Origin: Octopus vulgaris
Taxonomy: Eukaryota
Direction of reading: 5' to 3'
Assembly (NCBI GenBank): GCA_951406725.2
Contig: OX597815.1
Span: 172,856,001 to 172,920,000 of the forward strand
Length of the DNA stretch: 64,000 nt
This document shows positions 12,952 to 52,240 of this stretch, piece by piece (the stretch's first letter is position 1; every line of letters starts with the position of its first letter). The position numbers and the translations under genes are program-made. Under the pieces are notes generated by a model, which saw only the letters and a list, made by a program, of their open reading frames with translations, did not search any database and had not been told where the DNA came from.

Positions 12952-13170
12952 CTACAGGAGAGTGGACAAACGAAAGAAAGTGACACTCAACACATTAGGT
13001 AGGAGTCCCATATATAAATTATTCAATAAGTTTGTTTAATTCAGCTTCATTCAACTAAAAGTATCATTAGCTTGTAAAATTAACTTAGCTCATCAGATGA
13101 GCTAGATTCATTTTACAAGCTAACAAAACTCTAAGTTGTATGGAGCCAAATGAAACCATTATTAAATAAT
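12952..13170 (-). mobile_element. Miniature palindromic PLE-like element with a degenerate hammerhead ribozyme
   Basis: Imperfect palindrome 13018-13170 centred at 13095; minus arm reads CTGATGA-gctaagtt...aagctaat-GATAC-tttta-GTT and plus arm reads cAGATGA-gctagatt...aagctaac-AAAAC-tctaa-GTT; the tail leads into (TA)n. Confidence 0.6.
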
Positions 13171-13315
13171 CAGGTATGACTGTGTGGTAAGAAATTTGCT
13201 TCCTAACCACACGGTTCTGGGTTCAGTCCCACTGCATGGCACCTTGGGCAACTGTCTGCTACTGTAGCCTCAGGCCGACCAAAGCCTTGTGAGTGGATTT
13301 GGAGACAGAAGCTGG
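13171..13315 (+). mobile_element. tRNA-derived SINE head, family B
   Basis: A-box-like tgactgtgtggtaag, B-box-like ggttcagtccc, ggcaccttgggcaa core; many copies in the window. Confidence 0.9.
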
Positions 13316-13317
13316 TC

Positions 13318-13543
13318 ATATATATATATATATACATATACACACACACATACACATTCATATACATATATATATAATATATACATATATATATATATAT
13401 ATATATATATATATATATATATATATATATATATATATATATATATATATATATATATATATATATATATATATATATATATATATATATATATATGTGT
13501 GTGTGTGTGTGTGTGTATGTATGTATATATATATGAGAGAGAG
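13318..13543. repeat. (TA)n/(TG)n microsatellite
   Basis: Directly visible. Confidence 0.97.
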
Positions 13544-14091
13544 ACCAACAAAGACTTGTCTTGAAGTGGTAAAGTCTATTTAAAGATGTTGCATCTCTTA
13601 AAAGTGACCAAAAGTGGCATACTGTGCTAGAAAAAGACCTGACCACCTGTTCAAGCATGGTGAAATATAGAATAAAATGTAGAATAAAATGTAGAATAAA
13701 TCTGTGATGGAGGCTGAGATACAAAATATGTATCCACATCTAGGCCTTTCACCCATTTTATACCTTTTATGTTCCCATCAGCTATCCCTCTTACCAATTG
13801 AATACTCTCTCATCTAGTGGCCTTCTCTCTTCAATTCACTGCACTTGGCCCCCTTTTTATTTTAATAAGGGAAACCTATAGATCTGTTCATACACAGATC
13901 ACCCCCGCTGAGGTACTGCATTAAAATAGATGTTCACATCTATACACTCCTCGCTGACATTACTCTTTTACCATCGCTATTCTGACAATCTGTCATCTGT
14001 ACTCTGGTCCAACAGCAAACATCATCCTTCCATGCCTCTAACCATTTTCACAACTAACCATATCTTACTCTCTACATTATTACACGCTGCT

Positions 14092-14168
14092 ATCTCTCTC
14101 TCTCTCTCTCTCTCTCTCTCTCTCTCTCTCTCTCTCTCTCTCTCTCGCTCTCTCTCTCTCTCTCTCTC
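14092..14168. repeat. (TC)n microsatellite
   Basis: Directly visible. Confidence 0.97.
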
Positions 14169-14419
14169 CTTGCATATTGTAACATCATTACTTTGGTTTA
14201 CCTCTTTCATACTCATACTTCTTTCTTTACTTTACCCTTATTCATTTTCTGCTTTCTCTTCTATACAACCATCCCAATCATCCAGCATTTGCCTTCATAG
14301 TCAAACCCCTTTCTCCATCTCACACTAACTCACCTTCTTTTCTACCAAATGTATTGAACAGTGAGGACCCATTTGTCTTCCACATAAAATGCAAGTGAAA
14401 ACAGTACTTATAATAATTG

Positions 14420-15097
14420 AAACACTAGATATGATAAAGAAAAAAACATAAAACAATGCCTGGGCTCACAACTTTGCACATGGTTCAAACAAAAAACAGT
14501 CCTGTTAGACACAGTCCACATTCTACCCAAGTGACTTTCAATTCAATAGCACAACACAAATAATACAGTCTCATCACACAACACAAGTCCTTACAATCAC
14601 CACCCAATAAAATAATTTCTACAATATGCAACCTTACACAATCACCACCAAACAGCATAACAATACCCACATAACAGTATCTATTCTCAATACAATCACA
14701 ACCCAATAAAATATTATAACATATACTTTTACATAATCAATAGCCAACATTAGAACACCAACAACTCACATGACTCACAGTCTCTGCAAATACCATTCAA
14801 TAATACAATAACACAACCCATACAGTACTACTATACACCTTCACCATTCAATGTTAAAAAAAAACATAATGCAATCCATACAATACATATGAAGCACAAA
14901 CACCACATAACTCAAACTGAACGTACTCTACTACATTAAGATAACAGCAGAAACAACAAAATAAATCCAGCAATAAGGTAATACATCCTCAAAACACAAT
15001 ACTCCACACATTTCAGGAACGCAGAGGTACACCAAATAGTGCTGTAGAAACTGGCATAAAAACTTGAAATAATAATAATAATAATAATAATAATAAA
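14420..15097 (+). mobile_element. AC-rich strand-biased repeat ending in (TAA)n; related to 7690-8186
   Basis: G-poor top strand with recurring acaatcacc motifs; shared 3' terminus; (AAT)n at 15068-15095. Confidence 0.4.
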
Positions 15098-49560: not shown

Positions 49561-50179
49561 ATGATCTGTGTGTGTGTGTCATTATCAGGGGTGCTAGCTT
49601 ACTCGCAAATGTTAAAATTCTCAATTACAGGTTAACTTGAGTAGAACCGTCTTTACAACAACATTAACACAAAATTAGGTATTACTTCTCTTTATGCCAG
49701 AGTTGCCTGCCACACAATCAAACATGGGAAAATAGCATACACATCAAGCTAGAAAAGTGTATCTTATACAACATCAATACAGGTTTCAATATTACTGTTA
49801 AACTGCGGATTAGTTCACATAAGAATTAAGTGAAGTCACTTAACAATAGCAATTTTACAGAATTCAGAATCTAAGCTACAGCAAATATTTTGAGCTGCTA
49901 TATCTTTCTTCCATTCTTATATAGGGAGATCAAAATAAGATTTATGGAGACAAAGTTAAAAATAGAAGGGAAAATAAAATTGAGGTCACCATAGGAGCTT
50001 ATATGCATAGTTGTTTGATTAAAATTCTAAATACAAATCCTATTAATTTAAAAAATAGAATACTATTTGTTCGTTCGTTTTCTTATTATTCAAGAGAACT
50101 ATTTTAGATATTTACAAACAATAAAGAATGCATTTAAAAAGTCCATGCATTCATAGGTATAAATTTATATTAAGGTACA

Positions 50180-50420
50180 CATGCAGGTAAGACTGTGTGA
50201 TTTAGAATTTCACTCCCCAACTGTGGTCAGTGTCATGCAAGCAGTATCCTTAATTTCCAGTTTTCTGCAAAAACATATCTAGCCATAGGGAAGTATTGTC
50301 TTACTTGAAAACAGGTGACAGTTGGCAACAAAAGGATATTCAACTATAAAAAATCTGCCTCAACAAATTTCATCTGACCCATGCAAGCATGGAAAAGTAG
50401 ACATTAAAAAGATGATGACA
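50180..50420 (+). mobile_element. SINE family B with RTE-type tail, internally deleted
   Basis: Head start fused to the body/tail seen at 23550-23718. Confidence 0.7.
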
Positions 50421-50564
50421 TCACTGTTATACCAGTGAGCATAATGGTGATGTCATGTTTACATTCTCAGTAAACATTATGTTCTGTAGCTCTGTGAATT
50501 TGAAGACCAATTGAATAAGAAAATTTCTTGCTAGAGAATGGGTAAGGTTTGGTAACAGGTTTTA

Positions 50565-50700
50565 AATAATAATAATAATAATAATTGTGTACAGTGCTCA
50601 GGTGCACTACAACTCATCTAAAGTGTATATATAATCAGGTGTAGTTTCGACGGATTTCGGGAAGCATGAGGGCCTTAAAGGATGCAGTGTCATGGCAGTT
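50565..50700 (-). mobile_element. CR1-like 3' tip, family of 39398-40105
   Basis: (aat)n-tgt.tacagtgctcaggtgcac..atcaggtgtagt..aaggatgcagtg is shared. Confidence 0.85.
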
Positions 50701-50907
50701 TTTACTTTCTTGGTTCAGTTGAAAGGAGAAGGTTTAAAATAATATTATGATTGTATTCTGGCTGAAAATAGGAGAGGGAATCTTGTAAAATATGTTTTTC
50801 AATAAATTATACAACTAATGCCAGCATGTAAAATACAAAACAAGTAAAATCAGAAAGCAAAAGAGAAAAAAAATATTTCTTAAGAAATCTGATATTGTAT
50901 GAATAAC

Positions 50908-51065
50908 TTTTATCTTTTATATGTTTCATTCATTGGACTGTGGCCATGCTGGCACACCACCTTAAGGATTTAGTGGAATAAATTGACCCCAGTACTTAGT
51001 TTTGTAAATCTAATACTCATTCTGCCAGTCTTCTTTGCTGCACCGCTAAGTTATAGGGATGTACA
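50908..51065 (-). mobile_element. SINE family B non-RTE tail
   Basis: Matches 40590-40750. Confidence 0.75.
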
Positions 51066-51093
51066 TTATATATATATATATATATATATATAT

Positions 51094-52240
51094 ATATTAA
51101 AGTAATAAAGTTAATGTCTGGTCATAGAGTAACCCAGGCCTAGTGACCACAGTAATAGCAACAACGACAGTACTAGCAGTAACCACAGCAGCAATGGATC
51201 ATCCAACAACATTGACGGCAGTGACAGTGGCAGAAACACTGATGCCAACGACCCCAGTACCAACACTATGGCCGGAGAAGATAACTATGCTTACACCAGC
51301 AGCACCAGAGAAGCTACCGGCCCCACACTGAACATTACCAATGACGGCACCAACATCATAACCAACAACAATAGTACCAATCTTATGACCAGGGATGACC
51401 ACCACAACAATGACAACCACAGCGGCATTGCCGGACCTGCACATTACAATGATAACAGCACTGACAAGCAGCCCCAACAACACTGGTGACAGCAATATCC
51501 CCAGGCCTGGAGCCAACCAAAGATGCACCAGTAATGTGAACTCGACAAACACCTAAGCCTGGAAATATATCAGATAAGCCAGGACAGCATTCAAGCAATG
51601 TCTGTACAACCACAGGTCTTCCTTCAGGGTCCCAGAGACAATTTGTCACATCCCTGGCCAGCCATGTGTGGCACCTCAAAGATGAAGGGACTCCATATGA
51701 TATCAAGTGGAAGATTTAGAACAGCCGGAACCTTACATCAGTGGGAGTGTATGCTGCAAGCTCTGCATAGCTGAACGAACTAGGATACTCAAAGACTTCC
51801 TGAAACCTGAGTCACTGAATACTCACCAAGAAATCTTCACACCATGCATCCATTTAAAACACTACCTGCAGCAAGCATGGGATTCCCCATTCAGTGACTA
51901 AGTCCGAATGAGTCCTTACAATCCAATAGCAGCCCAAGGGATAGATCCCTTATTCCCATCTCCCGGTCCACAAATAGCTGATCTAGGGGAGATAACCCAT
52001 CTTCACTAATGCCAGACTATTTATTCTTTGATAATCAAATGACCAATGACCATAACAGATTTCTACCTTCCAGAGATGAAAAGCTAAATATCTTTGGACT
52101 AGAGTCTGATGAGTCATCCACAAACCTACAGCTTTCGTGGATGCGAAATCATTGGTGACTCTATAACCAGACATTAACTTTATTATTTTAATATTTTACT
52201 GCTCTATACTTTAGAGTGTGCTTCTTTTCCAGATTTGTTA
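51094..52240 (+). mobile_element. Penelope-like element: inverted 5' terminal copy, low-complexity region, GIY-YIG endonuclease remnant and hammerhead-bearing 3' end
   Basis: KYIR*ARTAFKQCLYNHRSSFR..TSLASHVWHLKD..YDIKWKI..PYISGSVCCKLCIAER..LNTHQEIFTPCIH (~51567-51880); 41-bp inverted repeat 51094-51134 versus 52154-52194; preceded by (TA)n. Confidence 0.88.
52095..52169 (+). ncRNA. Type I hammerhead ribozyme; this copy probably inactive
   Basis: Stem I tagagt (52100-52105)/actcta (52158-52163); CTGATGA 52106-52112; stem II gtcatccac/gtggatgc; GAAA 52145-52148; short stem III; cleavage-site base is G here but T in the inverted copy. Confidence 0.8.

What the first reader, a model, noticed from the sequence alone, without database searches (positions are those of the whole stretch)
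12952..52240. Recurring layout: TA-associated Penelope-like elements whose 5' inversion ends inside the hammerhead ribozyme
Seen in sequence: four elements with unrelated sequences (12952-13170, 37717-38030, 38052-38216, 51094-52240) each consist of an inverted copy, a forward copy and a 45-80 bp unpaired tail, next to (TA)n. In three of them the inversion endpoint falls in hammerhead sequence: in CUGAUGA at 13095, at GAAA/stem III at 38096-38102, and within 4 nt of the cleavage site at 52154. Established: PLEs carry type I hammerheads in their pLTRs and often have inverted pLTRs. Inference: these are several families of miniature hairpin-forming non-autonomous PLE derivatives that prefer TA microsatellites, and the fold-back point may be set by the ribozyme-cleaved RNA end during reverse transcription.
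Basis: partly seen in the sequence, partly recalled or inferred. Interest (0 to 1): 0.75.

Follow-up and report, generated by a model that had tools for sequence, protein, structure and literature searches.

The report
Head-to-head Penelope insertions, some precisely spliced
The four hairpins are real but follow a known layout for Penelope-type jumping genes; their turning points are not set by the self-cutting RNA, and in one family most copies lack an intron exactly at its splice sites, which likely means that these elements, known for keeping introns, also copy spliced RNA into the genome.

Summary
The layout is real and known: four unrelated Penelope-like (PLE) insertions, each a tailless arm head-to-head with a tail-bearing arm, three clearly at (TA)n. 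Elements 2 and 3 trace to Hydra-clade ORFs, element 4 carries a decayed endonuclease, element 1 has no ORF link. Ribozyme cleavage does not set the fold-back: of 255 mapped arms in two young families, 12 end within -2..+1 of the cut (not significant), and 189 of 201 arms that reach the cut run through it. Ends pile up 38-48 or 74-82 nt upstream, at initiator-like sites; the hammerhead simply fills much of that short unit. The better finding: in family 2, 37 of 47 informative arms lack a 1,329-nt GT-AG intron exactly, and an ORF-bearing sibling has lost a longer intron from all three repeats. This points to sense, spliced, uncleaved RNA as template and argues against the published antisense self-priming model. 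Arm asymmetry favours priming from both ends of one break (inferred). The scan already noted the two-end rule in this genome and a spliced fold-back in another genome.

The parts
12952..13017 (-). Element 1 tail (unpaired 3' extension), next to a short TA run at 12940-12951
   Evidence: family alignment
13018..13096 (-). Element 1 tail-bearing arm; starts at C3 of CUGAUGA; decayed hammerhead, predicted cut 13053|13052
13095..13170 (+). Element 1 tailless inverted arm (77% to partner); abuts a SINE head
37717..37827 (-). Element 2 tailless arm; 5' end at +10 from the family's hammerhead cut
   Evidence: L231
37827..37949 (+). Element 2 tail-bearing arm; 5' end 2 nt before the cut site (37828|37829); 1 nt shared with the other arm
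37950..38030 (+). Element 2 tail; in full-length siblings it lies in the 5' UTR about 50 nt before the ATG
38031..38051 (.). (TA)n target shared by elements 2 and 3
38052..38095 (-). Element 3 tailless arm; reaches 7 nt 5' of the cut
   Evidence: L139
38096..38149 (+). Element 3 tail-bearing arm; starts at GAAA (-13); cut site 38108|38109; lacks the 5' half of the ribozyme
38150..38216 (+). Element 3 tail, followed by (TA)n
51094..51134 (-). Element 4 short tailless arm after (TA)15; reaches 4 nt 5' of the cut
51135..52194 (+). Element 4 long arm: N/T/S-rich low-complexity frame, decayed GIY-YIG endonuclease (about 51520-51850, stops and frameshifts), 3' region
52100..52163 (+). Element 4 type I hammerhead; CUGAUGA at 52106; this copy has GUG where the family has GUC at the cut triplet
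52195..52240 (+). Element 4 tail, followed by TG-rich repeat

Best explanation
These are four independent truncated insertions of Penelope-like retrotransposons, each a tailless arm joined head-to-head to a tail-bearing arm, likely made when both ends of one cut in a TA repeat primed reverse transcription on the same sense, uncleaved and often spliced RNA. Shown: layout, TA targets, two fixed 3' ends, variable 5' junctions, read-through of the hammerhead cut, exact intron loss, ORF link for families 2 (through siblings) and 3. Inferred: the element's endonuclease cuts both strands in (TA)n; one end primes at the end of the tail and the other at its start; both cDNAs run towards the RNA 5' end (initiator-like sites at -81 and -47 from the cut) or stop early; the two cDNA ends are joined by short microhomology, blunt joining or small insertions. 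The hammerhead lies within 10-40 nt of that 5' end, so junctions often fall in it by geometry.
For: Two fixed 3' ends: 59 of 60 mapped pairs have one tail arm and one tailless arm; the exception is a misread flank in L243. This matches the two RT start sites bounding the tail, used on both strands in vitro (PMC11167929, parts 1-2 of 4 read). Uncleaved template: 73 of 78 and 116 of 123 arms pass the cut; in family 4, 26 of 28 pattern arms run at least 17 nt past it. 5' pile-ups: 30 of 124 arms end at -82..-74 and 48 of 131 at -48..-38. Sense spliced template: 37 of 47 family-2 arms extending at least 7 nt past the junction lack a 1,329-nt intron with donor AAG|GTAAGT and acceptor TTTTAG|G; the junction could be read in 35 of the 37 and is exact. 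A second donor is joined to the homologous acceptor in all three repeats of ORF-bearing L365; that donor is unspliced in 5 siblings and the acceptor in L317. Against simple fold-back: the tailless arm is the longer one in 17 of 56 pairs, and in 4 further cases the partner holds only part of the tail. One source per insertion: paired arms share family variants at 5 of 5 and 26 of 33 sites, against 8% and 18% in shuffled pairs. Junctions mostly show 0-4 nt overlap or short inserts.
Against: Paired arm ends are correlated (Spearman 0.69 and 0.42) and 13 of 56 pairs are near-perfect palindromes, as fold-back or later central trimming would also give. Seven discordant variant sites fit later mutation or a second RNA. 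The start sites are inferred from pile-ups and a recalled initiator consensus, with no RNA 5'-end data; the family-3 pile-up also overlaps a CTAG palindrome and a possible splice acceptor. The 37 spliced arms may descend from few intronless masters, so they need not be 37 splicing events. No intron loss was seen in family 3. Element 1 has no ORF link, element 4 no RT. Splicing was not observed in RNA.
Confidence: 0.72

Rival explanations
1. One reading: hammerhead cleavage makes the RNA 5' end, and reverse transcription folds back there.
For: 12 of 255 arms end within -2..+1 of the cut, among them window element 2 and L227; slight excess in both families (5 vs 2.3 and 7 vs 4.3 expected). Families 2 and 4 have complete type I motifs (21 of 29 and 5 of 29 loci hit, 0 shuffled; some family-4 hits are other families' ribozymes).
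Against: Neither excess is significant; 20 of 131 and 14 of 49 four-base windows hold as many ends. Two of the seven family-3 cases are sense deletions and one is a 16-nt stem I overlap. 189 of 201 arms pass the cut. Ends inside the ribozyme span are 29 of 114 and 62 of 102 in-unit ends, for spans covering 30% and 76% of the unit. The ribozyme was not needed for insertion in vitro (PMC11167929).
Confidence: 0.05
2. One cDNA is made to the RNA end, folds back on itself and copies itself; later trimming of the palindrome centre creates the asymmetry.
For: Arms share variants and have correlated ends; exact palindromic junctions occur at self-complementary words.
Against: 17 of 56 pairs with a longer tailless arm and 4 tail-only partners need large one-sided deletions in copies 96-99% identical to their family; the fixed tailless end needs its own explanation.
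Confidence: 0.18
3. Self-priming on an antisense template, proposed to explain head-to-head palindromes and intron retention (PMC3846280, passages read).
For: Long ORF-bearing siblings mostly keep intron sequence in both repeats.
Against: Antisense RNA is not spliced at sense GT-AG sites, yet head-to-head insertions with exactly spliced arms are the majority in family 2 and L365 is spliced at another donor. It survives only if intronless masters arose first by another route.
Confidence: 0.04
4. Assembly fold-back artefacts.
For: Palindromes next to microsatellites are hard to assemble.
Against: Arms differ by 1-23%, have fixed unequal 3' ends and locus-specific junctions across many contigs. 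Both family-3 ends, tailless-to-TA and tail, appear in contigs of 4 other runs, though no piece spans the window junction.
Confidence: 0.01

Closest known systems
Hydra clade of C-terminal EN+ Penelope-like elements (Craig et al. 2021, PMC8557442; section 11 and passages read, supplements not read)
   Same: RT then GIY-YIG; DKT, CxCX5C linker, CxxC and CxH around the endonuclease end, no CCHH; hammerhead in the pLTR; (TA)n targets; inverted 5'-truncated copy plus one-sided tail.
   Different: Tails are 45-80 nt rather than 30-40; family-2 siblings have 3' regions up to about 3.5 kb with long introns; the passages read describe PLEs as retaining introns, whereas exact intron loss is common here.
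Poseidon PAc of Anolis (Frangieh et al. 2024, PMC11167929; parts 1-2 of 4 read)
   Same: Two internal RT start sites bound the tail; both strands are cut and extended; uncleaved RNA is the main substrate.
   Different: Other clade; tail lies in the ORF there and in the 5' UTR here; the parts read do not analyse inversion junctions or splicing.
Drosophila virilis Penelope (PMC2377424, passages; PMC4209133, parts 1-2 of 4)
   Same: Internal promoter, 5' UTR intron, intron end next to hammerhead helix I.
   Different: 75-nt intron kept in genomic copies, with selection proposed as the reason; here a 1.3-kb intron is absent from most short copies.
Adineta vaga Penelope with inverted pLTRs and solo pLTRs (PMC3846280, passages)
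   Same: Head-to-head pLTRs, junction palindromes, tail, N-rich coding inserts.
   Different: Explained there by antisense self-priming; spliced arms argue against that here.
Metazoan non-LTR retrozymes (bioRxiv 10.64898/2026.07.22.740005; part 1 of 5 and passages)
   Same: Short, hammerhead-bearing, PLE-mobilised.
   Different: Retrozymes are tandem units; these are single truncated arms of ORF-linked pLTRs.
L1 twin priming (recalled, not from a call)
   Same: Two primers from one break; junctions with microhomology or small inserts.
   Different: L1 arms copy different RNA parts; here both copy largely the same part from two nearby starts.

Membership tests
EN+ Penelope-like elements | RT plus GIY-YIG ORF linked to the repeat | tested here: met
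   Family 3: RT, EN, 3' region and pLTR in L412. Family 2: 838-862-aa frames in siblings with 76-86% similar pLTRs, RT piece joined to the family-2 pLTR in L070. Element 4: EN remnant only.
EN+ Penelope-like elements | ORF link for element 1 | tested here: inconclusive
   RT hits in 2 of 30 loci lie about 600 nt or more from the repeat, linkage not shown.
EN+ Penelope-like elements | pLTR, inverted 5'-truncated copy, one-sided tail | tested here: met
   59 of 60 pairs; direct pLTRs flank the ORF in L357, L363, L365, L370.
EN+ Penelope-like elements | Intron retention on retrotransposition | tested here: not met
   Kept in most long copies, lost exactly in 37 of 47 family-2 arms and in L365. 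A described property of PLEs, not the basis of their classification.
Hydra clade | CxCX5C linker, no CCHH, CxxC and CxH | tested here: met
   L355: CTCRDKSNC, CYLC, CRH; family 3: CNCKNETSC in L330, CKLC, CRH. Element 4 shows CKLC and CIH but no linker.
Hydra clade | DKT and RWK motifs in the RT N-terminus | tested here: met
   DKT at 129; RIKWK at 42 taken as the RWK motif, a loose match. Seen in family-2 siblings only.
Hydra clade | Insertion into (TA)n | tested here: met
   131 of 138 and 105 of 108 ends.
Hydra clade | RT phylogeny | not tested
   No reference proteins fetched; Pfam gave no RT or EN hit for 3 fragments.
Type I hammerhead ribozyme | Core CUGANGA, GAAA, UH with stems I-III | tested here: met
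   Family 2: 21 of 29 loci; family 4: core conserved in alignment. Family 3: 3-bp stem II, U4C variant in 54 of 84 arms. Family 1: only in the majority line, with CpG decay. No complete motif in the window.
Type I hammerhead ribozyme | Self-cleavage | not testable with these tools
   Needs an in vitro assay.
Non-LTR retrozymes | Tandem units, each with a full hammerhead, no ORF parent | tested here: not met
   Window elements are single head-to-head arms; families 3 and 4 continue into coding remnants.

The most novel reading that the evidence does not exclude
Penelope-like elements routinely retrotranspose sense, spliced, uncleaved RNA and build their inverted ends by priming from both sides of one break; intron retention in full-length copies then reflects selection or splicing kinetics, not the copying mechanism, and intron loss can fix even in ORF-bearing elements.
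Probability: 0.55. Interest if true: 0.6.

Novelty: new member of a known kind. Interest (0 to 1): 0.4.

Why it matters
The layout itself is textbook PLE. What matters is that young families with hundreds to thousands of copies record the mechanism: they show that the hammerhead is read through, that arms share one source, and that spliced RNA is copied. This bears on two questions that the papers read call open: why PLEs keep introns, and how inverted repeats form. I found no report of intronless genomic PLE copies in searches, but the library lacks subscription papers (Arkhipova 2003 and 2006 were not available to me, titles only), and supplements were not read.

Tried and rejected
Rfam scans: no hammerhead model hit, only simple-repeat miRNA noise. 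My first descriptor missed family 2 through a matching error; redone, whose 4-bp stem II limit misses family 3. One search used a faulty family-3 reference; one search replaces it. A-to-G editing signature in arms: none (8 A>G vs 8 T>C, p 0.44; 8 vs 6, p 1.0). Spliced forms in family 3: none found among 131 arms. Own ORF for family 2: none within 10 kb of 4 intron-bearing copies. Sequencing runs: no RNA holder listed; only contigs were available, so splicing and 5' ends were not observed in RNA, and no contig spans the element-3 junction. Pfam on 3 protein fragments: no relevant hit. Master-hairpin model: the window's element-2 junction pattern occurs at only 2 loci exactly. Sampling: first 100 of 221 (family 2) and first 100 of 4,755 (family 3, all on contig 1; 7 arms not fetched) pattern hits, plus 40 tail-only hits each; duplicates and arms with under 250 nt upstream dropped. 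Some family-2 ends at +44..+49 may be alignment breaks at subfamily indels. Family 1 arm ends were not mapped (too diverged).
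Full report
Observation. The window lies in a 2.8-Gb animal genome, likely an octopod from a recalled SINE resemblance (not tested). All four elements are there: inverted arms of 77%, 99%, 88-90% and 93% identity with an unpaired tail, unrelated to each other, each a dispersed family. 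Element 1 reads on the minus strand and has TA at one end only. Element 4 is about 1.15 kb and holds a decayed GIY-YIG endonuclease. Element 2 also turns at a hammerhead, 2 nt before the cut. No window copy has a complete ribozyme. (TA)4 follows 131 of 138 tailless ends and 105 of 108 tails, against 3% of window positions.

Identity. Family 3 continues upstream into RT and endonuclease (L412). Family 2 has siblings with open frames of 838-862 aa; L355 carries RIKWK, DKT, YRDD, CTCRDKSNC, YIGST, CYLC and CRH, with no CCHH. These are the Hydra-clade features in PMC8557442 section 11, which also reports (TA)n targets; the same paper describes the inverted truncated copy and one-sided tail as usual for PLEs. 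No tree was built. Element 4's endonuclease is of the same type (34-37% to family 3); element 1 is assigned by layout and hammerhead only.

I anchored on exact words near the arms' 3' ends, so that the sample does not depend on the 5' end, and mapped 124 family-2 and 131 family-3 arms. Only 5 and 7 end within -2..+1 of the cut (p 0.08 and 0.14 against a flat local background); 73 of 78 and 116 of 123 arms that reach the cut pass it. In family 4, 26 of 28 arms pass it. Ends inside the ribozyme are no more frequent than its share of the unit. Ends pile up at -82..-74 (30 arms) and -48..-38 (48 arms), where the sequence matches a recalled initiator consensus; these are inferred RNA starts. Most templates were therefore uncleaved, as found in vitro for a lizard PLE (PMC11167929). 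A cleavage route of a few percent cannot be excluded.

Splicing. Long family-2 copies carry a 1,329-nt intron, donor AAG|GTAAGT and acceptor TTTTAG|G, ending 13 nt before the ribozyme core. Of 47 arms that extend past this point, 37 lack it, exactly in the 35 that could be read. In the ORF-bearing sibling L365 all three repeats join another donor, about 200 nt after the stop, to the homologous acceptor; five siblings keep that donor unspliced and L317 keeps the acceptor. Most other long siblings keep intron sequence. Exact loss at GT-AG sites from two donors is best explained by reverse transcription of spliced sense RNA. PLEs are described as retaining introns (PMC8557442, PMC2377424), and an antisense self-priming model was proposed for both retention and head-to-head palindromes (PMC3846280). 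The spliced head-to-head copies argue against it. Caveats: they may come from few intronless masters (L299 keeps 47 nt upstream of the inferred start), family 3 shows no spliced form, and splicing was not observed in RNA.

How the hairpins likely form. Pairs have one tail arm and one tailless arm in 59 of 60 cases, matching two RT start sites used on both strands. The tailless arm is longer in 17 of 56 pairs, and 4 further partners hold only part of the tail; a fold-back of the tail cDNA cannot give this without later one-sided deletion. Arms share family variants (31 of 38 sites, shuffled 8-18%) and their ends correlate, so they come from one source, probably one RNA. Junctions show 0-4 nt overlap, small inserts or exact palindromes at self-complementary words. 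I put double priming with end joining at about 0.72, fold-back with trimming at 0.18.

Comparison and verdict. The layout, targets and ribozymes are known for Hydra-clade PLEs; these are new family members, not a new class, and not tandem retrozymes. The cut-site idea fails. The added value is genomic evidence on template and priming. Earlier notes of this scan report the two-end rule in this genome and a spliced fold-back elsewhere; I reached my reading before seeing them and do not count them as support. Papers were read as stated under Closest known systems; PMC8969392 as passages only; no supplements were read. Interest 0.4.

Noticed in passing
L365 (G000:C10:100765500-100775400): ORF-bearing Hydra-type element (695-aa open frame after an N-terminal break) whose three repeats all lack the long 3' intron region: intron loss in a near full-length PLE.
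   Followed up: partly
L070 (G000:C15:46684261-46687463): An RT fragment ending in an A-rich run is joined to a spliced pLTR exactly at the inferred start site, suggesting a template jump; its two arms differ at one variant seen elsewhere in the family.
   Followed up: partly
window 1969-3272: A fifth, decayed Hydra-type remnant: endonuclease pieces on both strands (1969-2058 minus, 3025-3261 plus), inverted pair 1982-2164/3095-3272 at 73%.
   Followed up: partly
family 3 ribozyme core, e.g. L116: 54 of 84 arms carry CCGANGA instead of CUGANGA and a 2-3 bp stem II; possibly weak or inactive ribozymes in the most abundant family.
   Followed up: no
L380, L383, L081 (second elements): Short copies of sibling subfamilies diverge from long copies exactly at the acceptor AG, suggesting more spliced forms; donors were not found in held loci.
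   Followed up: partly
window 51135-51520: Family 4 has an N/T/S-rich low-complexity frame directly before an endonuclease remnant, with no linker or RT seen; may be an internally deleted PLE.
   Followed up: no
window 17986-18042 and 21090-21196: Two further short palindromes, partly simple repeat.
   Followed up: no
window 61565-61883, 22905-23091, 12593-12694: Tandem arrays of 62, 66 and 40 nt units sharing GTGCCA/TGGCAC words.
   Followed up: no
G000:C1:67410118 and C1:67470546: Near-identical family-3 hairpins 60 kb apart in opposite orientation, likely a segmental duplication.
   Followed up: no
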